Source: a virus
IMG/VR virus record: IMGVR_UViG_3300045049_000234
Span: 47,180-111,179 of that record
Strand: one strand, 5' to 3'
DNA length: 64,000 nt
The position numbers and the translations under genes are program-made. Of the stretch, positions 1,793 through 59,771 are shown piece after piece. Positions within the stretch are counted from its first letter, which is position 1. The number at the start of each line of letters is the position of its first letter. Under the pieces are notes generated by a model, which was not told where the DNA came from, did not search any database, and worked only from the letters and a program-made list of their open reading frames with translations.

Positions 1793-1919
1793 CTCCCGAG
1801 GTTGGGGTGTGCGGGACTAAGTTGCCTTAGACCATCTCGGCCACACGCGGCGGACCGCGTGACAGGATTCGAACCTGCGTTCGTTTGCACGAAGTAAGTT
1901 CCGCACGGGGCACCGGGAG
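1793..1919 (-). ncRNA. Y-RNA-like unit 2
   Basis: Same three motifs; T-arm GCAGG-TTCGAAT-CCTGT, hairpin CACGCGG-TCCG-CCGCGTG, D-arm TGGCCGAGATGGTCTAAGGC; small TTCG-TGCAAA-CGAA hairpin. Confidence 0.85.
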
Positions 1920-1954
1920 ATGCCTTTACTGTCAGTGTTCAGTTGTCAATGGGG

Positions 1955-2100
1955 TCGCGCCCGAGGTTGAGTCGGTGATCGTTGTTCTCTGTTGTGCTGC
2001 CGTTACACCACACGCCCCAGGTGGGGGGCGCGCCGGATTCGAACCGGACCTCCGGTTCCCTAGACCGGTGAAGTAACGATCTCCTTGGCACCGGGCGCGA
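1955..2100 (-). ncRNA. Y-RNA-like unit 3
   Basis: Same motifs; anticodon-like arm CCGGT-CTAGGGA-ACCGG, T-arm CCGG-TTCGAAT-CCGG, closed acceptor-like hairpin, D-arm TGGTGTAACGGCAGCAC. Confidence 0.85.
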
Positions 2101-2109
2101 TGTCTGTGG

Positions 2110-2256
2110 GCCGTGTCCGAGATTGAGGTCGGACGATCGTGACGTTAGGTGCTCTGGGCCACTGAGCCACAGGGGACACAGTCCCCCGCCGGGATTCGAA
2201 CCCGGGTCACCCGCTTAAGAGGCGAAGTAACGATCATCCTGGGCACCGGACACGGC
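2110..2256 (-). ncRNA. Y-RNA-like unit 4
   Basis: Same motifs; anticodon-like arm TTCGC-CTCTTAA-GCGGG, T-arm CCGGG-TTCGAAT-CCCGG, closed acceptor hairpin, D-arm TGGCTCAGTGGCCCAGAGC. Confidence 0.85.
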
Positions 2257-2266
2257 ATCCGTTTAG

Positions 2267-2413
2267 TCCACCCCGAGGTTGAATCAGAGACCGGTATTCT
2301 TAAAGAAGGACTCGAACCTTCACCTCCGGCTTTTCAAAGCCAGCGTGCTGCCAATTACACCACTCGGCCATGAGTGGCCGAGGAAGTATCGGTATCAATG
2401 GCACCGGGATGGA
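2267..2413 (-). ncRNA. Y-RNA-like unit 5
   Basis: Same motifs; order is acceptor-like hairpin CTCGGCCA-CTCA-TGGCCGAG, D-arm, anticodon-like arm CTGGC-TTTGAAAA-GCCGG, T-arm GAAGG-TTCGAGT-CCTTC. Confidence 0.82.
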
Positions 2414-2421
2414 TGCCTGGC

Positions 2422-2533
2422 CCCTCCCGAGATTGAGGTGGCCGACGGAGAACGGGACTTGAACCCGCAGCGTTTCCTTGGAAGGGAAATTTCGAACCAT
2501 TCGAAGTAACCGTAGACCTGGGCACCGGGAGGG
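2422..2533 (-). ncRNA. Y-RNA-like unit 6
   Basis: Same motifs; D-like hairpin TTCG-AATGGTT-CGAA, anticodon arm TTTCC-CTTCCAA-GGAAA, T-arm GCGGG-TTCAAGT-CCCGT. Confidence 0.82.
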
Positions 2534-2542
2534 AATTCTATG

Positions 2543-2621
2543 GTGTCCCCGAGATTGAAAGCGGCGGCCGGTGTGTTTCCATTTGGAGTGAAGTAACCGA
2601 TTGCCTGGGCACCGGGGACAC
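2543..2621 (-). ncRNA. Y-RNA-like unit 7 (short)
   Basis: Same motifs; the only insert is a small hairpin TTCA-CTCCAAA-TGGA. Confidence 0.8.
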
Positions 2622-2627
2622 GTACGC

Positions 2628-2750
2628 GGCATTCCCGAGGTTCACGGTGGATCGACGACGGGGGTTCTCCGTCCCCACGCTCCGCGTGAGGGTTCCCCCT
2701 ATGGTGCACTGGTGGAGGAAGTATCGCCGGTCCGAGGCACCGGGAATGCC
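2628..2750 (-). ncRNA. Y-RNA-like unit 8 (non-tRNA insert)
   Basis: Terminal stem GGCATTCCCG/CGGGAATGCC and same motifs; the insert has hairpins CCCTCACGC-GGA-GCGTGGGG and GACGG-AGAACCC-CCGTC and no T-loop. Confidence 0.75.
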
Positions 2751-2774
2751 CACTGTTCAGTTATCAAGAAGCGC

Positions 2775-2854
2775 GTCCCCGAGATTAAGGGCGACGTCCG
2801 GAACGGGATTCAAATTTACAGTTTGAAGTAGCCGGTCGTCTGGGCACCGGGGAC
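2775..2854 (-). ncRNA. Y-RNA-like unit 9 (short)
   Basis: Same motifs; insert hairpin TTCAAA-CTGTAAA-TTTGAA. Confidence 0.8.
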
Positions 2855-2939: not shown

Positions 2940-3458
2940 TTAGCCGCGCGCCGCGATGTCGGCGAACATGCGCACGCTGTCCACGATGTCGTCCGTCAGC
3001 CCCGTCGCCGGGTCCGCCGTGATCAGCAGCGTGGGCGCGGTGTGCGCCGTGCGCCGGTTGCCGCGCGTGAGCATGCCCATGGTGAACCCGTCGTCGATCC
3101 ACGCGAACGGCCGGATGCCCGCGTACTGCAACACGTGATCCCACTTCCATTCGGCGGTCACGTCGTACTCGGAGAACCGGCGATTCATCGGCGCCACCGG
3201 CATCGGGTCCAGCCCGATCAGCGGCGCCAGGTGGGTGTTCGCGCGGTCGTTCCACGTGGTCGCCCACACGTGTTCCACGATGTCGTCCAGCGACCGCACG
3301 CGCTTGACGTCGCCGGGGTCCAGCACGAGCGGCACCGGGCGCGGCATGCCGGGCAGGTCGATCGTGTGGCGCAGCCACTCGCCGCCGGTCACGTTCTGGA
3401 GCGGGTAGCGGTTGAACACCCCGTCCACATCCCAGAACAGCAGCGGCTTGCCGGTCAC
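2940..3458 (-). CDS. HAD-superfamily phosphatase (resembles HAD domain of Swiss-Army-Knife RNA repair proteins)
   Basis: LLFWDVDGVFN motif I, VWATTW motif II, FAWIDD motif IV. Confidence 0.8.
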   Translation of the reverse strand: MTGKPLLFWDVDGVFNRYPLQNVTGGEWLRHTIDLPGMPRPVPLVLDPGDVKRVRSLDDIVEHVWATTWNDRANTHLAPLIGLDPMPVAPMNRRFSEYDVTAEWKWDHVLQYAGIRPFAWIDDGFTMGMLTRGNRRTAHTAPTLLITADPATGLTDDIVDSVRMFADIAARG

Positions 3459-4504
3459 CGCGCCTCGGCCGGGATGATCAGCAGCTTGTCGCCGTCGTAC
3501 ATCTTGCGGTTCACAGACGTGGACTGCACGAAGATCGTGTACTCCGGGTTGATGTCCGGGCTCACCCGCGTGTCGATGTCCGGCAGCCCCAGGATGTCCC
3601 GCGCGCCGTCGCCGACGTACACGACGCCGGTCTTCTTCTCGTGGACGGCGATGCGCTTGGTGCGCTGGATCGTGACACGGCGCTTGAGTTCGTAGAAGGC
3701 CGCGCCGATCCGGTAGTCCATGCGCAACTGATCCACAACCCAGTCACGGATCTCCGCGTCCTCGGTCACCGTGGTCAGCGTGTAGGCGCTGCCAGGCAGC
3801 GGGGTGAGCGTGGAACGTACGGTGTCCCGGTTGACGGCGTCGATGCCGGTGGAGAAGATCGCCCGGCTGCCGCGCACGCCCTGCGCCCGGTTCGCCATGA
3901 ACCGGTCGGTGGCGGCGCGGATCGTGTTGCCGACCTCCCGCACACCGTGCGCGGACGTGGTGTCCCACACGGCGATGTTGTCGGCGGCGAACCCGAACCG
4001 CTTGGCCTCGAACACGCCCATCTGGTTCGGCACCATCACGGCCACCGTCCAGTTGTCCGGCAGTGCGCGCAGCCGCGCGGACAGGTGCGCGGAGGTGTGG
4101 ATGCGGCTGCGGTTCTCCTCGCCGTCGGTGATCACGTAGACCAGGAACGCATGGTCGCCGTAGATCTCCGGCGTCTTGGCCAGATCATCCAGCGCCGTCA
4201 TGGTCGCGTCGATCAGCGCCGTGTTGCGCTCGGCGCGGTAGTGCTCCGCGATCGAAGGCAGGCGCAGCACGTCCCGATCGTAGAACACGCATTCGGCGGC
4301 CTGTTTGACGCCGGGCACGGCCTCGTTGAACACGTAGACCGTCGCCCGCGTCTCCTGGTCCATCACAGTGGACCGTTCGGCCAGGTGGGACACCATGCCA
4401 TCCGTGACGGCCACCACGTCGCGGGCGAACCGGGACATGGACAGCGAGCCGTCCAGCACGATGGCGATGTGGTTGATGTAGCCCTGTGTGGGGTGTTTGT
4501 TCAT
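3455..4504 (-). CDS. vWA-domain protein
   Basis: IAIVLDGSLSM MIDAS, NTALIDA, VITDGEENRS. Confidence 0.85.
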   Translation of the reverse strand: MNKHPTQGYINHIAIVLDGSLSMSRFARDVVAVTDGMVSHLAERSTVMDQETRATVYVFNEAVPGVKQAAECVFYDRDVLRLPSIAEHYRAERNTALIDATMTALDDLAKTPEIYGDHAFLVYVITDGEENRSRIHTSAHLSARLRALPDNWTVAVMVPNQMGVFEAKRFGFAADNIAVWDTTSAHGVREVGNTIRAATDRFMANRAQGVRGSRAIFSTGIDAVNRDTVRSTLTPLPGSAYTLTTVTEDAEIRDWVVDQLRMDYRIGAAFYELKRRVTIQRTKRIAVHEKKTGVVYVGDGARDILGLPDIDTRVSPDINPEYTIFVQSTSVNRKMYDGDKLLIIPAEAR

Positions 4505-7844: not shown

Positions 7845-8531
7845 CTAGACTACGGCGTCCACGTTAGCGTTGTCAAGGGGATCGGCCTGCGAAGTCATCC
7901 GCATTCGCCTGCCCAGTTCGATCCATGCGTGCCGTGGCCACATCGTGCGGCACCCACGGCACTGGATCTTCTGCGCGTACGGGTCCGCCCACAGCGACGT
8001 CCCGCACACCATCCCGTCGTCCGCCGTCTGCGGGCACATCCCGATCATCCGTGACTCGCCGGGACCGTTGACCTGAACGCGGCACGCCGCCGCCCACTCC
8101 CGGATGTTCGCCGCGAACGCGTCCGCCTCGGCGTGCTCATCCGCCGCCCACGTCCAGTTGTTGCGCAGGAACGTCACCGCGCCGACCACCGACTGCTGCA
8201 CCGTCCCCCGGAACGGTCGCGCCGTCCATCCGAGCACCATGCGCCAGTCCGATTCCCAGTAGTGCAGGACGCTGACGATGCCGCCGTGCGCCCGCAGGCT
8301 CAGCGGCTCCAGCCGAACCGGCACCGGCGATCCCACGCGCCCCCCGCCGGACACGCGGGCGTCGGTGCGCATCCCCCACGACGGTTCCAGCATCTCCCCC
8401 AACGCCTCGTACAGCGCCGGTATCGCCGTCAGGTCGGCGTCCACGTGCGCGATGCACAGGCCGCACACGCGGCGGGTGGACGATCGGCGGCAGATCATGC
8501 ACTGGACGGACACGGGCTGGTCAGTGAGCAC
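7845..8531 (-). CDS. Phage protein with N- and C-terminal Cys (Zn-binding) motifs
   Basis: CMIC...CGLC and CPQ...CG...CRGC; protein-like composition. Confidence 0.7.
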   Translation of the reverse strand: MLTDQPVSVQCMICRRSSTRRVCGLCIAHVDADLTAIPALYEALGEMLEPSWGMRTDARVSGGGRVGSPVPVRLEPLSLRAHGGIVSVLHYWESDWRMVLGWTARPFRGTVQQSVVGAVTFLRNNWTWAADEHAEADAFAANIREWAAACRVQVNGPGESRMIGMCPQTADDGMVCGTSLWADPYAQKIQCRGCRTMWPRHAWIELGRRMRMTSQADPLDNANVDAVV

Positions 8532-8571
8532 GGCGCCCCCTCATGGTGTTTTTTATGAGGGTAGCGCCGTG

Positions 8572-9697
8572 CATCCATGCCTTGCGCAACGATGCCGAGG
8601 CCAGCGCCGCCATGCCGGGCTCGGCCGTGCCGTGCCACGTCGTGCGGGCAACCACCGACTAGCCGGTGACCACCCGCACGACACGGAACCATGCGTTGCC
8701 AAGCCGCGCGCTGCGCTGCCGAGCCGTTACCTAGCCGGGCCAAGTACCGCCATGCGAAGCCGGACCATGCCGGGCACTGCGTAGCGCCGCCTCGCGTGCG
8801 CGCCGGGGCCTCGAACCCCGGTGACATCCGGTCGCGCGCCATCCATGCCGTGCCGAGACAGGCCGCGCGTTGCACTGCCTAGCCCGGCCGTCCACCGTCC
8901 GTGCCTTGCCGTACCTCGCCATGCGCCGCCACGCCGGACTGAGCCCAGTTCTGCCGAGCATGGGAACCTTGCCGCGCCTCGCATTGCCAAGCCGAGCGAT
9001 GCCCGGTCTGGCCACGCGTCGCCCCGCCGCGACCCCACGGCGGGGTTGTCCTTGCGTTGCCGAGCCACGCCACGCCTAACCAGGCCACGCCGCGCACAGC
9101 CGCGCCCCGACCCCAGAGCGCGGGTATCCGTGCCTTGCCCCGCGTAGTCATGCGTCACCTTGCCACACGGTGCGGCGCCAAGCCATGCATTGCCCGGCCG
9201 GGTCGTGCCGTGCGCAGCTATGCCGAGCGCAGCGCAGCCCAGGGACGGCACGCGGTGGTCCCGCGTACCAACCTTGGGTTGCGCCCTCGCCGCTCGGCCA
9301 TACCCCGCCTAGCATGGCCGAGCGGCGCCGTGCGGCGTCCATGCCTTGCCTGGCGTTGCCACGCCAGTGCCGCGCTCAGCCGAGCGATGCCGGGGCCAGC
9401 CCTGCCATCGCCTCTGCCCAGCCAAGACAGCGACACACCGGTGATGTGCCACCGCCCCGGCTGGGTCCGTGCCTCGCCGCGCGGAGCCAAACCGGGCCAA
9501 ACGTTGCCGGGTCGTGCCCCACCATGCCGCGACCCCACGACATGACGTCCATGCCTAGCCACGCCAGACCTCGCACAGCATCGCCTAGCGTCGCCAGGTC
9601 CTTGCCAAGCCGGGTCGCGCCGCGCTACGTCCAGCGTTGCCGTGCGCTGCCGCGCCGGGCGTTGCGTTGCCACGCCATCGCATCGCGAAGCCAGGCC
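8572..9697 (-). repeat. Non-coding array of 5-nt periodic (G/C/T)GY-NN repeats in discrete tracts separated by linkers/hairpins (candidate guide-RNA array)
   Basis: Example 9106-9047: GGCGC GGCTG TGCGC GGCGT GGCCT GGTTA GGCGT GGCGT GGCTC GGCAA CGCAA GGACA. There are 23 in-register pentamers at 9239-9125. All six frames give only low-complexity A/R/G/W/P peptides. Confidence 0.9.
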
Positions 9698-9700
9698 ACG

Positions 9701-10267
9701 TTACGCCGCCGCATCCTCGTCCGGTGCGATGCCCATGGCGCGCATCCGGCGTTCGATGTCAGCGAGACGGCGATCCGTCGCCTCGCTGTGGTTGCGCGTC
9801 TCCGTGCGCAGGTCGTCCAGCGTCTTCTGCATCCGGGCCGTCTTGGACGCCTGCCGCCGGTTGATCTCCATCTGATAGGCGAACGCGGTGGCGACGGTTT
9901 CGAACGCGGCGCGCACCGCCGGGCTTTCGCCGGACAGATCGACGTTGACCGCCTTCGAGTAGGCGCGCTGAAGCTGCCGACCCGCCTTGCGGCCGTGGCG
10001 CCGCGCCAGCCCGAGCTGTGCGACGGCGTCCACGACGACATAGCCGACGCCGCGTACGGCGTCCACGGCGCGCTTCTCGTCCTCCTCGAACCGCCGCGCG
10101 GCGTCCCGGAACGCGACCCGCAGCGTCTGCCGGTCGCGCACAGGGTCCAGCTCCAGCGCTTCGGCCATCTCCTCGAACGTGATCAGATCGCCGATGGCCT
10201 TGGTCCGCAGGAGGCCGTACATCACCTTCCAACGGGCGGTGTCGCCGATGGGGGCGAACGGGCTCAT
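9701..10267 (-). CDS. Putative winged-HTH plus coiled-coil protein, translationally coupled to the RAMP-like gene
   Basis: ITFEEMAEALELD...AVRGVGYVVV resembles a wHTH helix and wing; helical C-terminus; ATGA overlap at 10264-10267. Confidence 0.7.
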   Translation of the reverse strand: MSPFAPIGDTARWKVMYGLLRTKAIGDLITFEEMAEALELDPVRDRQTLRVAFRDAARRFEEDEKRAVDAVRGVGYVVVDAVAQLGLARRHGRKAGRQLQRAYSKAVNVDLSGESPAVRAAFETVATAFAYQMEINRRQASKTARMQKTLDDLRTETRNHSEATDRRLADIERRMRAMGIAPDEDAAA

Positions 10268-10848
10268 GCGTTGTCCGGGATGACGGTGACGCTGCCCGCG
10301 AACCGGCCGTACCGGGGGCGCCAGTTGCCCAGGCCGATCAGGCTCCCGGCGATGTCAACGATCTGTTCGAAGTCGCCGAGGTCGATGATCTGCGTGTCCA
10401 CGTAGATGATCGCGGAGGTGGCCCAGTCATGGAAGATCGGCCGCGTGCGGATCACGCGGGCGTTGTTGACCTTCACGGACGCCTGGTGCCGGAACGACTC
10501 GTCGGCCCACAACGCCTCCGGGTCGCGCGGACCCTTGTAGACCAGCGGATTGACGTTGGACAGGACGATGACGCCCGTCTGCACCTTGGGTCCGAGCTTG
10601 CGCTTGCGCGCGGCGTCCAGCAGCGCGCGATAGATGTTGTCGCCCGGCATGTACGGACCCTGCTCCGAGTCGTGGTACAGGCCGCCCAGGAACTCGGCGT
10701 GTGCCATTTCCGCGTAGTCGTCGTCGGTCTTGGACCGCTTGGCGCTGATCTTCTTGATGGACTTCGCGATCGGGTCCAGCGGATTGGACAGCCGCGCGTT
10801 GTGTACCAGCAACGGGCACGTGCCCGTAACATCCAACTTGATATCCAT
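10264..10848 (-). CDS. Stand-alone RAMP/Cas7-like (RRM-fold) protein, 194 aa
   Basis: Start ATG at 10848 after GAGGAACCC. N-terminal strand IKLDVTGTCPLLVHN, PYMPGDNIYRALLDAA (compare Cas7/Csm3 P.IPGSS.KG.LR), RVIRTRPIFHDW, and a C-terminal Gly-rich loop AGSLIGLGNWRPRYGRF. Confidence 0.78.
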   Translation of the reverse strand: MDIKLDVTGTCPLLVHNARLSNPLDPIAKSIKKISAKRSKTDDDYAEMAHAEFLGGLYHDSEQGPYMPGDNIYRALLDAARKRKLGPKVQTGVIVLSNVNPLVYKGPRDPEALWADESFRHQASVKVNNARVIRTRPIFHDWATSAIIYVDTQIIDLGDFEQIVDIAGSLIGLGNWRPRYGRFAGSVTVIPDNA

Positions 10849-10864
10849 GGGTTCCTCTCGATGA

Positions 10865-10975
10865 TGACCGTGCCTCGCGTTGCCAAACCATGCCGGGCGG
10901 TGCCGCGCCTGGCATCGCCGTGCCTCGCGTTGCATTGCGCCGCGACGCCAAACGCAACCGTTGCCACGCCACGCG
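10865..10975 (-). repeat. Leader tract of (G/C/T)GY-NN pentamers between promoter and RBS of the RAMP-like gene
   Basis: GGCGT CGCGG CGCAA TGCAA CGCGA GGCAC GGCGA TGCCA GGCGC GGCAC CGCCC GGCAT GGTTT GGCAA CGCGA GGCAC GGTCA (17 in register), plus a few upstream. Confidence 0.88.
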
Positions 10976-10987
10976 CTGATGTTGACC

Positions 10988-11017
10988 ACACTATCACCGG
11001 TCATGCCATAAATACAA
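10988..11017 (-). promoter_or_regulatory. Putative promoter of the RAMP/repeat locus
   Basis: TTGTAT-18 nt-TAGTGT with TGn extension, in a locally AT-rich patch. Confidence 0.55.
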
Positions 11018-11097
11018 ATCCGCAACACGCTGACCTGCGGATATCCCAAGTCTTGCCGTGCGGCGCCTGACGCTGCCGCGCATAGCCAAGCGATGCG

Positions 11098-11952
11098 TTA
11101 CTCTGCGTCGGTGTCGGGTTCCTCGACGTCTTCGACCACATCGCCGTCCACGATGTCGGCGGCGTCCGTCACTTCGGTGGCGTCGGTGCGCGGGTTGACG
11201 TCCAACCGCACGCCGCCGTCCACGGCCAGTCCGCGCACGTACTGCGTGGACCGGGGCGCCGTCTTGAGTACATCGATAAGCGTTGTTTTCAACGCCATGG
11301 CATCAAAGTGATCACGCCACGGGCCGACGATCTCGCCATTCTTGCGGGCCATCGCGAACTTGTCGCGGTGTTCCTCGCAGTCCTCGCGTGTCCACGCGGA
11401 GAACAGCGGCCGGGGACCGCCCACCAGATGAACCACCGAGTAGTAATCGGTCACCGGTCCGCGAGCGGCGCGGGGCGCCCGCGACGGGATGTGCTCGATA
11501 CGGCTGTCCGTTCCGTACCTAACGTCGAAGAAATCACTTTCGTAACGCTTGTGCGCCTCGATCGACACCACGCGGTCCGACCGGTACGCCAGGTTGATCA
11601 ATCCCGGATAGCCGATGATCAAGGTGGCTTCCATGCGCCCCTTGTTGCGCATCGGCAGCAGCCACGCCTCGCCCAGCACCGCCGGGCGCAGACCGAGCTG
11701 TGCGCACGTCATCAGGCCGCCCAGCACGGACATCGGGTCGCACTCCGCCAGGCGCGGCGTCTTGCGCAGGACCGTCATGGCGTCGCGGGCAAGCTGGACG
11801 GCGTCGTGGCCGCGCGGCATGGCCCGCTCGAAATCCGGGATCATCTTCCTGATCTCGTCGGCCAGGGACCGCCGCCCCTCGTCCGGCGTGCGCGGGGTGT
11901 TCGGCGCCAGTTCGCCGCGCTGCGTGCGCATCCGGTTCGCCAGGTCGTTCAT
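11098..11952 (-). CDS. recT: RecT-family single-strand annealing protein
   Basis: LAECDPMSVLGGLMTCAQLGLRP..LGEAWLLP, LIIGYPGLINLAYRS, GPWRDHFDAMALKT. Confidence 0.93.
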   Translation of the reverse strand: MNDLANRMRTQRGELAPNTPRTPDEGRRSLADEIRKMIPDFERAMPRGHDAVQLARDAMTVLRKTPRLAECDPMSVLGGLMTCAQLGLRPAVLGEAWLLPMRNKGRMEATLIIGYPGLINLAYRSDRVVSIEAHKRYESDFFDVRYGTDSRIEHIPSRAPRAARGPVTDYYSVVHLVGGPRPLFSAWTREDCEEHRDKFAMARKNGEIVGPWRDHFDAMALKTTLIDVLKTAPRSTQYVRGLAVDGGVRLDVNPRTDATEVTDAADIVDGDVVEDVEEPDTDAE

Positions 11953-13770: not shown

Positions 13771-13881
13771 GTGATCCTCCTGGGGTGAGGTTCACTATCG
13801 TACGCCACCGGATTAGCATGGTCAACACGACGGCGCCGGAAGGACGGTGTACGTCCTTCCGGCGCCGTCGTGCCCGGCTGC

Positions 13882-22606: not shown

Positions 22607-22731
22607 GGACGCGCCATCCATGGACGTGGCTGGTTTCGGCGCGACCTCACCCGCGCCGTCACGCACAGGCGGGGTTTTCTCACCTGCACTTTCTACCCGT
22701 CGCTAAGGGGGTTCGATTCCCCCTGCGTCCG
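22607..22731 (+). ncRNA. tRNA-like structured RNA
   Basis: Acceptor-like GGACGCG/TGCGTCC plus G, perfect T-arm GGGGG-TTCGATT-CCCCC, three internal hairpins; lies in a non-coding gap. Confidence 0.5.
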
Positions 22732-29259: not shown

Positions 29260-29317
29260 CGGCCACACCGCGCGCCGGATGATCACCGATCCGGCGCGCG
29301 GTGTGCTACGCTAGTGA

Positions 29318-38292: not shown

Positions 38293-38489
38293 CAAGCCGG
38301 ACGGCCCGCGTTCCGAACAGGGGGGAACGCGGGCCGTCCCCACCATCGCCGCCCGCCCCGGTTCCACCACGCCGGGGCGGGCGGTTCGCCGTTTGACACG
38401 CCCTGACCTGTACCGAAGAATCAGATCCAGAGTGGCACCCCTTTGACCACGGCACCTTGAAGGGGTGCCTTTCGCATGCGTGGGGGTAT

Positions 38490-52150: not shown

Positions 52151-52933
52151 GGTAACACCAGCCGGGAAGAGGAACCCGGCCAGCAGCCCAGGAGGACCCC
52201 AAATGACCATCTCCCGCCGCTACTCGTACGCAGGCCAGGGCGTCGTCGTCACCACCCGCGACGGCGAAAGCTTCCAGGGCACCCTGATCGGCTGGGGCCC
52301 CCGGGTGCTGCGGATGGAGACCCTGGACGGGACCTGGAAGGAATTCGCGAGCGTCGGCCTGATGGTTACGTCGGCCTGATCCCACCCTTCGCGCGGTGCC
52401 ACAAAACCGCAGGTCGCATACAGCCGACCTGCGGTTTTGCGTTGAGGCGACGCGCCGTCCCCTCCGCCGGTACCGTGAAATGCGCACGAACCAGGACATC
52501 TATGTGCTGCGGCGCTGGTGGCACCCATCATTCGATCCGCAGGAAGCGCACGGGGTGAGCACCGTTCCACCGCCCGTGATCGGCATCCCACCGAACCCAG
52601 TAGCGCGTCTCCCCGGACGGCAGCTCCTCCAGCATGGCCACCGTGCCGTGCTCGCAGACACACCCCATCGGGTTCCTGCTCCAGACCACGCGGTCGCCGA
52701 CGCTGAACGCCGGGAACAGCTCGGCCTCACCGGTCACGGCAGCCACCACCACGGCGCCGGTAGACCAGGCGCGCCCGGCTTGACCGCCGGACAGGCGAAC
52801 GACGCGGCGTATTCGTGGAAGCACACAGGACACTTCCACACCCACGCGCATTCCCGCCCGGCGCCGGTGTGCCAGTGCCGCACATCGTCCCCCATACGTC
52901 CGTGGCCGACCGGACACGTACGCAGCCACCCCA

Positions 52934-59540: not shown

Positions 59541-59771
59541 TCGGTTGTCCTACACGTCCTGTTTCACCCACCGGCCGTTGTGGCGGACCTCCACCACCAC
59601 GTCCGGCGAACCGCCCACGGGCCAAGAGGCGGCGGTGCCCTAGTGGAACCGGGGGGAGTCGAACCCCGTGCGCGCGCTCGTGGCTACCCGCCACGGCCGA
59701 TCCCATGGTGGTCGGTCTTTCAGCGCACACGTGCCCGGGACGCGTCCGGGTTTGGTGCCGACCAAGCGCCG

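What the first reader, a model, noticed from the sequence alone, without database searches (positions are those of the whole stretch)
8572..9697. The pentamer array is punctuated into about 10-13 guide-sized units with a shared 3' end motif and hairpin separators
Seen: tracts of roughly 9-23 pentamers repeatedly end in GGCAY-GGAY, CGCAA-GGACA or NGCAW-GGTTC (about ten such ends by my count). The register then breaks for a short linker or a strong hairpin: 8639-8682 GTCGTGCGGG...CCCGCACGAC, about 8783-8822 CCGGGG-TTCGAGG-CCCCGG, about 9245-9268, and about 9426-9456. The NN strings differ between tracts, e.g. 9106-9052 reads GC TG GC GT CT TA GT GT TC AA AA. Inference: this is a multi-guide precursor processed or bounded at the hairpins, analogous to a CRISPR array. 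Simple slippage would be expected to homogenise NN, and it has not.
Basis: partly seen in the sequence, partly recalled or inferred. Interest (0 to 1): 0.88.

Follow-up and report, generated by a model that had tools for sequence, protein, structure and literature searches.

The report
VIPR guide-RNA array in actinophage
The five-base-periodic tract is real and is the multi-guide RNA array of a VIPR system, a CRISPR-related phage gene silencer first described in 2026 preprints, so it is a large new example of a known kind.

Summary
On the minus strand, 8577-9697 consists of about 162 pentamers of the form (G/C)-G-Y-N-N in 11-15 register-coherent tracts of 5-22 units. Eleven tracts end in GCA(A/C/T) followed by GGAY or GGTTC. 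Three long hairpins, a tRNA-like minihelix and a terminal hairpin lie between some tracts.

The gene just upstream (10264-10848, minus) is 36% identical (E 6e-46) to the Vipr protein of Escherichia phage SUSP1, which has a solved structure (PDB 36pp). The next gene is a vap1-like accessory gene. The order leader guide, vipr, vap, array matches the published VIPR locus (bioRxiv 10.64898/2026.04.26.720920).

This is a new member of a known kind, and this scan has already reported VIPR loci in at least 16 other genomes. Three features stand out:
- The array is large.
- It lacks a uniform 40-nt tail.
- Its punctuation is mixed. Only 4-5 of about 13 boundaries carry a hairpin.

I found no targets, but my searches could only find exact matches. 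Expression and processing remain untested.

The parts
11053..11097 (-). Short tract of 9 pentamers directly after the RecT stop codon, ending CGCAC-GGCAA. Possibly an extra or decayed vrRNA.
   Evidence: The status is uncertain because no GGR stop follows.
10988..11017 (-). Candidate promoter TTGTAT-18 nt-TAGTGT upstream of the leader vrRNA.
   Evidence: Read by eye against the Streptomyces consensus TTGACN/TAGNNT. The E. coli-type scan did not report it. This is inference only.
10849..10949 (-). Leader vrRNA. It has 16 pentamers (10870-10949) ending CGCGA-GGCAC, then the tail GGTCATCATCGAGAGGAACCC, which contains the vipr ribosome-binding site.
   Evidence: It sits in the same position as SUSP1 vrRNA1 and as the arrays upstream of vipr homologues in L012, L019 and L022.
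10264..10848 (-). vipr gene (194 aa), a RAMP-family vrRNA-binding protein.
   Evidence: 36% identity and E 6e-46 to SUSP1 Vipr. PDB 36pp 'SUSP1 Vipr protein', E 1.1e-36. phrog_4652, E 1.4e-57. GC3 is 0.91.
9701..10267 (-). vap1-like accessory gene (188 aa). Its start overlaps the vipr stop (ATGA).
   Evidence: E 2e-6 to SUSP1 vap1. E 3e-15 to Gordonia phage MakoManhole gp77, annotated 'DNA binding protein', and E 2e-15 to Mycobacterium phage LittleE gp33.
9596..9697 (-). Units A0 (4 pentamers), a 1-nt slip, then A1 (15 pentamers) ending GGCTT-GGCAA, followed by GGACCT.
9529..9595 (-). Unit A2 (9 pentamers) ending GGCTA-GGCAT, with a 22-nt tail GGACGTCATGTCGTGGGGTCGC.
   Evidence: The tail shares GGAY...YGGGGTCG with the tails of A7 and A8.
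9469..9528 (-). Unit A3 (12 pentamers) ending GGCGA-GGCAC, followed by GGAC.
9417..9465 (-). Hairpin H1, a 23-bp stem containing G-U pairs.
   Evidence: The 68-nt stretch 9405-9472 folds at -44.4 kcal/mol, z -5.6, on the minus strand. The plus strand gives -20.6, z +0.4, so the structure is specific to minus-strand RNA.
9335..9406 (-). Units A4 (8 pentamers), a 1-nt slip, then A5 (5 pentamers) ending GGCAA-GGCAT, followed by GGACGC.
9290..9334 (-). Unit A6 (9 pentamers), without the canonical end motif.
9238..9278 (-). Hairpin H2.
   Evidence: The 55-nt stretch 9238-9292 folds at -31.4 kcal/mol, z -3.1, on the minus strand. The plus strand gives -27.3, z -1.5.
9107..9239 (-). Unit A7 (22 pentamers, possibly two guides of 11) ending GGCAA-GGCAC, with tail GGATACCCGCGCTCTGGGGTCGG.
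9029..9106 (-). Unit A8 (11 pentamers) ending GGCAA-CGCAA, with tail GGACAACCCCGCCGTGGGGTCGC.
8961..9028 (-). Unit A9 (12 pentamers) ending GGCGC-GGCAA, followed by GGTTCCCA.
8890..8960 (-). Unit A10 (12 pentamers, the 5' ones degenerate) ending GGCAA-GGCAC, followed by GGACGGTGGAC.
8841..8889 (-). Unit A11 (9 pentamers) ending GGCAC-GGCAT, followed by GGAT.
8796..8837 (-). tRNA-like minihelix: a 5-bp closing stem, an 11-nt internal loop, a 6-bp stem with T-loop UUCGAGG, then AC.
   Evidence: Similar elements occur in 138 actinophage records. The alignment of 6 copies shows compensatory changes in 4 of 11 pairs. There is no Rfam family match.
8691..8796 (-). Units A12 (13 pentamers), GGTAAC, then A13 (7 pentamers) ending GGCAA-CGCAT, followed by GGTTC.
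8635..8686 (-). Hairpin H3, a stem of about 23 bp. Its 3' arm overlaps the first two apparent pentamers of A14.
   Evidence: The 64-nt stretch 8632-8695 folds at -38.5 kcal/mol, z -5.3, on the minus strand. The plus strand gives -30.6.
8577..8636 (-). Unit A14 (12 pentamers after the hairpin) ending CGCAA-GGCAT, followed by GGAT.
8538..8561 (-). Terminal hairpin CCCTCAT-N10-ATGAGGG, just before the next gene (start at 8531).
   Evidence: z -1.5, weak.

Best explanation
The tract 8577-9697 (minus strand) is the downstream vrRNA array of a VIPR system resembling the published type II. The locus reads: leader vrRNA, vipr, vap1-like gene, then about 11-15 further vrRNA units.

The mechanism below is taken from the published SUSP1 system and is inferred for this locus. 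The array is transcribed in the same direction as vipr and vap. Vipr protomers polymerise along each RNA, one per pentamer, and bury the G-G-Y bases. The two variable bases of each unit are left free to pair with double-stranded DNA, skipping one target base per unit. The bound target is transcriptionally silenced. Published targets are rival phages, satellites and prophages, so each unit here would be one guide against some competitor.

My own inference concerns how tracts end. Each tract ends where the pyrimidine slot is filled by a purine (GGA or GGG). This should stop filament growth, because the published Y pocket excludes purines.

The long hairpins, which depend on G-U pairs, and the tRNA-like minihelix are probably transcript-level punctuation. 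They could be terminators, RNA-stabilising structures or host RNase sites. They mark a minority of the boundaries.
For: Protein homology:
- The Vipr homologue is full length and matches the solved SUSP1 Vipr.
- The contact residues H17, R138, W178 and R179 named in bioRxiv 10.64898/2026.04.26.720927 align to H16, R136, W176 and R177 here.
- The neighbouring gene is vap1-like.
- The order of genes and arrays is the same as in SUSP1.

The RNA array:
- Pentamer statistics fit GGY/NN. Position 3 is always a pyrimidine and the NN positions are near random.
- Unit sizes of 7-22, mostly 9-15, fit the published 9-16.
- The tract is non-coding. GC by codon phase is flat at 0.70-0.75, whereas the flanking genes have GC3 of 0.86-0.91.
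- The hairpins are far more stable as minus-strand RNA, which supports minus-strand transcription.

The family:
- A scan for the pentamer-plus-end motif found 31 viral contigs of 43-69% GC. Almost all have arrays at the hit, and several lie directly upstream of a vipr homologue.
- Actinophages MakoManhole, Trine and LittleE carry the same vipr gene with flanking arrays.
- Across 37 loci, 62 of 75 tracts are followed by GG-purine.
- There is no self-target in the phage's own 111-kb genome, as published for other VIPRs.
Against: No expression data exist for this phage. I found no target for any guide, so the guide function at this locus rests on homology.

Position 1 of the pentamer is looser here (G 67%, C 22%) than the published GGY. 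The G-loop aspartate that reads G1 in SUSP1 (D177) is asparagine here (N175).

The roughly 40-nt conserved pseudoknot tail of the SUSP1 clade is absent. Tails here range from 1 to about 60 nt and share only GGAY. Unit boundaries are therefore partly a matter of judgement, which is why the count is 11-15. Some tracts (A0, A6, A13, and the tract after RecT) may be decayed.
Confidence: 0.88

Rival explanations
1. The array is made of vrRNA-like sequences that act mainly as decoys or competitors. They would soak up the Vipr of rival phages, or redirect it, rather than guide this phage's own Vipr to targets. Some units may simply be decayed relics.
For: Decoy and solo vrRNAs are documented in the E. 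coli system (bioRxiv 10.64898/2026.10.15.759431). Several units here have degenerate pentamers or lack the end motif. No target was found.
Against: The array sits beside an intact vipr-vap pair with conserved RNA-contact residues. The missing targets are just as well explained by the exact-match limit of my scans and by poor sampling of soil actinophages.
Confidence: 0.06
2. The pentamer tracts are protein-binding regulatory RNA, not guides. Vipr or another protein would coat its own transcript to control translation or stability, as TRAP does on (G/U)AG-NN repeats, or as T4 gp32 does on its own leader.
For: The leader tract ends 21 nt before the vipr start codon and its tail contains the ribosome-binding site. 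Autoregulation of vipr by filament assembly is therefore plausible in addition to guide function.
Against: This does not explain a 1.1-kb array downstream of the operon with about 13 units and near-random NN. The homologous SUSP1 RNAs are shown to be programmable guides.
Confidence: 0.04
3. The tract is a DNA-level or coding feature: a slippage microsatellite, a replication origin or iteron field, or a repeat-protein gene.
For: The period of 5 bp is half a helical turn. ORFs of 126-174 aa can be drawn through the tract.
Against: Codon-phase GC is flat, unlike in every flanking gene. The variable positions are not homogenised and Tandem Repeats Finder finds no period-5 array. The motif is strand-specific and co-oriented with vipr. 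The hairpins depend on G-U pairs, which form only in minus-strand RNA. The same arrays accompany vipr homologues in phages from 43 to 69% GC.
Confidence: 0.02

Closest known systems
Type II VIPR system of Escherichia phage SUSP1 (Vipr, vap1, four vrRNAs). Sources: bioRxiv 10.64898/2026.04.26.720920 and 10.64898/2026.04.26.720927; PDB 36pp.
   Same: The Vipr protein is homologous (36% identity over 183 aa) and the vap gene is homologous. One vrRNA lies upstream of vipr and an array lies downstream of vap. The RNAs are GGY-NN pentamers with hypervariable NN and unit sizes near 9-16. The phage does not target itself.
   Different: There are about 13-15 downstream units here instead of three. The scaffold is mostly GGC, with C tolerated at position 1, instead of GGT. 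There is no conserved 40-nt pseudoknot tail, only a short GCA(N)-GGAY junction with heterogeneous linkers. The G-loop Asp177 is Asn. The host is a high-GC actinomycete, inferred from 68% GC and from Streptomyces-phage matches.
VIPR 'staggered' and 'hammerhead-interspersed' vrRNA arrays (same preprint, figs S18 and S19, known to me from their legends only).
   Same: Many vrRNAs are packed head to tail with very short or 1-nt junctions. Here these are A0/A1, A4/A5 and A12/A13, and the compact 14-unit array in L023 is similar. In some published arrays, structured RNA elements sit between guides.
   Different: No hammerhead or other Rfam ribozyme is present. The structured separators here are long plain hairpins and one tRNA-like minihelix. 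I could not see the figures, so the match to 'staggered' rests on the legend text.
Class 1 CRISPR arrays with Cas7-family RAMP backbones.
   Same: An RRM, G-loop and thumb protein polymerises on a guide RNA with periodic base flipping. Many guides are encoded in one array next to the protein gene.
   Different: There are no identical direct repeats separating spacers. I did not look for cas1, cas2 or other cas genes in the genome; the three nearest flanking genes are RecT, a DUF6205 protein and a phrog_1467 protein. The guide information is non-contiguous, at two of every five bases. The period is 5 nt rather than 6 nt. The published action is silencing by binding, not cleavage.
tRNA-punctuated RNA processing (mitochondrial transcripts, mascRNA-type tRNA-like elements).
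   Same: An acceptor-stem plus T-arm minihelix lies between two units of a polycistronic RNA. Minihelices of this shape are known substrates of RNase P and RNase Z (general knowledge).
   Different: There is only one such element in the array, and cleavage is untested. The same element occurs in many actinophage intergenic gaps that have no VIPR, so it is not specific to VIPR.

Membership tests
VIPR system | A Vipr protein (RAMP homologue of about 20 kDa) is encoded at the locus. | tested here: met
   10264-10848(-): E 6e-46 and 36% identity to SUSP1 Vipr. PDB 36pp_D 'SUSP1 Vipr protein', E 1.1e-36 over residues 4-186.
VIPR system | Residues that read the GGY motif are present (SUSP1 H17, R138, D177, W178, R179). 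| tested here: inconclusive
   From the alignment and the residue list: H16, R136, W176 and R177 are conserved, and D177 is replaced by N175. The looser position 1 of the pentamer may go with this change, but I have no evidence for that.
VIPR system | An accessory vap gene lies next to vipr. | tested here: met
   9701-10267(-) overlaps the vipr stop. E 2e-6 to SUSP1 vap1. E about 1e-15 to the corresponding genes of MakoManhole and LittleE.
VIPR system | vrRNAs consist of tandem GGY-NN pentamers, at least 4 and typically 9-16 units, co-oriented with vipr. | tested here: met
   162 pentamers in 15 tracts. Position 2 is G in 93% and position 3 is a pyrimidine in 100%. All are on the vipr strand.
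VIPR system | The NN positions are hypervariable. | tested here: met
   Composition is near uniform, all 16 dinucleotides occur, and the units are not duplicates. The test cannot be made between close relatives, because none exists in the collections searched.
VIPR system | A conserved structured 3' tail follows each repeat tract (about 40 nt with a pseudoknot in the SUSP1 clade). | tested here: inconclusive
   Only a short junction is shared: GCA(N) then GGAY in 9 units and GGTTC in 2. Three tails share GGAY...YGGGGTCG. The rest are 1-60 nt and unlike each other. The preprint says tail and array architecture differ between types. Family-wide, 62 of 75 tracts are followed by GG-purine.
VIPR system | vrRNAs are expressed as discrete small RNAs that co-purify with Vipr. 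| not testable with these tools
No RNA data are available for this uncultured phage.
VIPR system | The guides match natural targets by the 1-nt-skip rule and do not match the phage's own genome. | tested here: inconclusive
   The own genome gives no match above shuffled guides at skip 0-3. Exact-pattern scans of five guides in IMG/VR and two in JGI metagenomes gave 0 hits. 296 kb of fetched loci gave only background. The public scans could not allow mismatches.
CRISPR array | Near-identical direct repeats of 23-50 nt alternate with unique spacers. | tested here: not met
   No repeats of that kind were found. Tandem Repeats Finder gives only short chance rows. The units share only the pentamer scaffold and a 9-nt end motif.

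The most novel reading that the evidence does not exclude
This array may represent a VIPR array architecture not yet described. In it, guide ends would be set by two things rather than by a conserved pseudoknot tail or a ribozyme. The first is a GG-purine 'stop' unit that the purine-excluding pocket of Vipr cannot accept. The second is host RNases acting on generic structures: RNase III on the 23-bp hairpins that contain G-U pairs, and RNase P or Z on a tRNA-like minihelix. That minihelix is itself an undescribed RNA motif, found in at least 138 actinophage genome records.
Probability: 0.2. Interest if true: 0.55.

Novelty: new member of a known kind. Interest (0 to 1): 0.4.

Why it matters
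VIPR is a very recent discovery and its characterised examples are from Escherichia and Pseudomonas. This locus shows the same system in a 111-kb high-GC actinophage. With about 13-15 guides, it holds roughly four times as many as SUSP1.

The array gives a panel of natural guides whose targets could reveal which mobile elements this phage competes with. It also shows how guide ends can be defined without the conserved tail.

The family-wide GG-purine ending fits the published purine-excluding pocket and suggests a simple rule for where Vipr filaments stop. That rule could help automatic vrRNA callers.

None of this changes the picture of what VIPR is.

Tried and rejected
Readings rejected:
- Coding: codon-phase GC in the array ORFs is flat.
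- Slippage microsatellite: there is no period-5 TRF array and the NN positions are near random.
- CRISPR: no repeats of that kind are present.
- Ribozyme separators: Rfam at E up to 1 over 8000-11500 gives only a chance miRNA row.

Target searches that found nothing:
- The phage's own 111-kb genome at skip 0-3, against 30 shuffles per guide.
- 296 kb of fetched VIPR and actinophage loci.
- Exact 1-nt-skip patterns for units A10, A9, A14, A8 and A3 in IMG/VR.
- Exact patterns for A14 and the core of the leader vrRNA in JGI metagenomes.

Caveats on these scans:
- They accept no mismatch.
- I dropped the last two, conserved, units from each pattern.
- The A14 pattern wrongly included two 5' 'units' that I later saw belong to the arm of hairpin H3, so searches are weak tests.
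- Decoding guides into codon-class peptides gave nothing I could recognise.

Other dead ends:
- Close relatives for an NN-variability test: there are none for vap. For Vipr there are only two in IMG/VR, at 56% and 44% identity, and none in 185,579 species genomes.
- I could not obtain a cellular genome handle, so I ran no mismatch-tolerant pattern search over Streptomyces genomes.
- Host-tRNA origin of the minihelix: there is no exact copy in the species genomes.
- The E. coli-type promoter and terminator scan found nothing useful on the minus strand.

Full report
What is there

The window is the right-hand 64 kb of a complete 111-kb IMG/VR virus with direct terminal repeats and 68% GC. Between two minus-strand genes lies a 1.13-kb gap, 8577-9697. 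Read on the minus strand, it is built almost wholly of five-base units.

- Spacings between GC dinucleotides peak at 5, 10, 15 and 20 nt: 104, 97, 87 and 79 pairs, against 8-29 at neighbouring lags.
- A register-aware caller splits the gap into 15 tracts of 5-22 units.
- Over 162 units, position 1 is G 67% / C 22%, position 2 is G 93%, and position 3 is C 93% / T 7%, never a purine. Positions 4-5 are close to random and all 16 dinucleotides occur.
- Outside this locus the genome has 14 such tracts, against about 17 expected by chance. The locus has 15, all on one strand.
- Two smaller tracts lie upstream: 10870-10949, which ends 21 nt before the next gene's start codon, and 11053-11097, just after RecT.

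- Eleven tracts end in GCA(A/C/T) followed by GGAY (nine) or GGTTC (two). The 9-mer SGCAHGGAY occurs nine times in the array, where about 0.3 are expected.
- Three long hairpins are strong: 9417-9465, 9238-9278 and 8635-8686. The stretches folded around them give -44, -31 and -38 kcal/mol, with z of -5.6, -3.1 and -5.3.
- They contain G-U pairs, so they are much weaker on the plus strand. For H1 the plus strand gives -20.6 kcal/mol, z +0.4. This points to a function in minus-strand RNA.
- The fourth 'hairpin' (8803-8821) is the T-arm of a tRNA-like minihelix.
- Only 4-5 of about 13 boundaries carry a structure. The others are linkers of 1-26 nt, and three of them are single-base register slips.
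- Long hairpins are also common at other gene ends in this genome, so they need not be specific to the array.
- The tract is non-coding. GC is flat across codon phases (0.70-0.75), while the flanking genes show GC3 of 0.86-0.91.

What it is

I scanned IMG/VR for three pentamers plus the end motif. This returned 31 contigs of 43-69% GC. Nearly all have pentamer tracts at the hit. In several the tract sits just upstream of a gene homologous to the window's 194-aa gene at 10264-10848, which belongs to phrog_4652.

A literature search then found the explanation. [quoted passage not shown] It describes VIPR systems as follows:
- a roughly 20-kDa RAMP-family Vipr protein;
- an accessory vap gene;
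- vrRNAs of 9-16 GGY/NN pentamers with a 3' tail;
- one vrRNA upstream of vipr and an array downstream of vap.

A companion cryo-EM paper shows one Vipr protomer per pentamer. The GGY bases are buried, with a pocket that excludes purines at Y, and the NN bases are presented for pairing.

The window's gene is 36% identical to SUSP1 Vipr over its full length (E 6e-46). It also hits the PDB chain 36pp 'SUSP1 Vipr protein' (E 1e-36). Four of the five named RNA-contact residues are conserved, and D177 is N here. The overlapping downstream gene (9701-10267) is related to SUSP1 vap1 (E 2e-6). It is related more closely to the corresponding genes of Gordonia phage MakoManhole and Mycobacterium phage LittleE. 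Those phages, and Gordonia phage Trine, carry the same vipr gene with flanking arrays. The SUSP1 locus has the same layout.

How it most likely works

- Shown here: homology of both proteins, the RNA grammar, the orientation, the non-coding nature, and structures specific to RNA of the minus strand.
- Inferred from the published system: transcription with the operon, Vipr filament assembly, DNA recognition with one base skipped per unit, and silencing of competitors.
- My own inference: tracts end where a purine occupies the Y slot. Across 37 loci, 62 of 75 tracts of at least 8 units are followed by GGA or GGG, and the last unit is GGCA-N in most. Up to 31 of those ends were selected by my search pattern, which leaves at least 31 of 44 unselected tracts that still end this way. 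This fits the purine-excluding pocket and would stop the filament.
- Processing at the hairpins or the minihelix is possible but untested.

Targets

I applied the published rule to the guides.
- There is no match above shuffled guides in the phage's own genome at any skip length, as published for other VIPRs.
- There is no match in 296 kb of fetched loci.
- Exact-pattern scans of five guides in IMG/VR and two in JGI metagenomes returned nothing.

These scans tolerate no mismatch. Two of them used a guide whose 5' end I had drawn too long. The result is therefore uninformative rather than negative. No close relative of the phage exists in the collections, so I could not test NN variability between sister phages.

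How it differs from the characterised examples

- There are about 13-15 downstream units, against three in SUSP1. Compact arrays of 10-14 units do occur in other contigs, such as L023 and L031.
- The scaffold is GGC-rich and position 1 is relaxed.
- There is no uniform 40-nt tail.
- The punctuation is mixed.

Verdict

The kind was published in 2026, and this scan has already filed VIPR loci in at least 16 other genomes. This is a new member of a known kind, of moderate interest.

Noticed in passing
window 8796-8837 (minus); also L001:3985-4050, L042-L045 around position 1500: A 42-nt tRNA-like minihelix: GCGCG, an 11-nt loop ACYGGCAGACA, a 6-bp stem with T-loop UUCGAGU, CGCGC, then AC. It occurs in 138 actinophage records (107 Streptomyces, 25 Mycobacterium, 4 Gordonia) at 215 places. 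Nearly all copies listed are unannotated. In the five records I opened it lies, in sense orientation, in a gap of about 90-105 bp between co-directional genes. Four of 11 pairs show compensatory changes. There is no Rfam family, no exact copy in 185,579 species genomes, and one literature search found no paper on it. It is a candidate undescribed RNA motif.
   Followed up: partly
L040 3134-3302 (Gordonia phage Trine): Two vrRNA-like tracts, each followed by the same tail GGAAGATAGACCGCTCCGATGGTC, lie inside the annotated CDS gp40 (3091-3894). The 5' part of that gene call is probably wrong.
   Followed up: no
window 9341-9406 and 9130-9184 (minus): Units A4/A5 and the second half of A7 share a five-unit NN block (GC AC GT AA xA). 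This is slightly above the shuffled expectation and hints that the array grows by partial duplication.
   Followed up: partly
window 59653-59667 (minus) and 22708-22722 (plus): Two further T-arm-like sequences (GGGGTTCGAnTCCCC). The first lies between the tRNA-Gln and tRNA-Val genes of the tRNA cluster and may belong to a tRNA or tRNA-like gene that ARAGORN did not call.
   Followed up: no
window 10264-10848 (minus), residue 175: The G-loop aspartate that hydrogen-bonds G1 in SUSP1 Vipr (D177) is asparagine here, and the pentamers tolerate C at position 1 in 22% of units. L012 keeps the Asp (GLGDFRP) and also has TGC and CGC units, so the link is doubtful.
   Followed up: partly
window 13826-13872, 29264-29305, 38299-38339, 52402-52439: Perfect hairpins of 15-21 bp with short loops are scattered through the genome. 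They are probably the U-tail-less terminators common in actinomycete phages, and they serve as a comparison class for the array hairpins.
   Followed up: no
window 1884-2821: An earlier first-reader note on this genome reports Y-RNA-like cassettes displaying different anticodon loops. I did not examine them.
   Followed up: no
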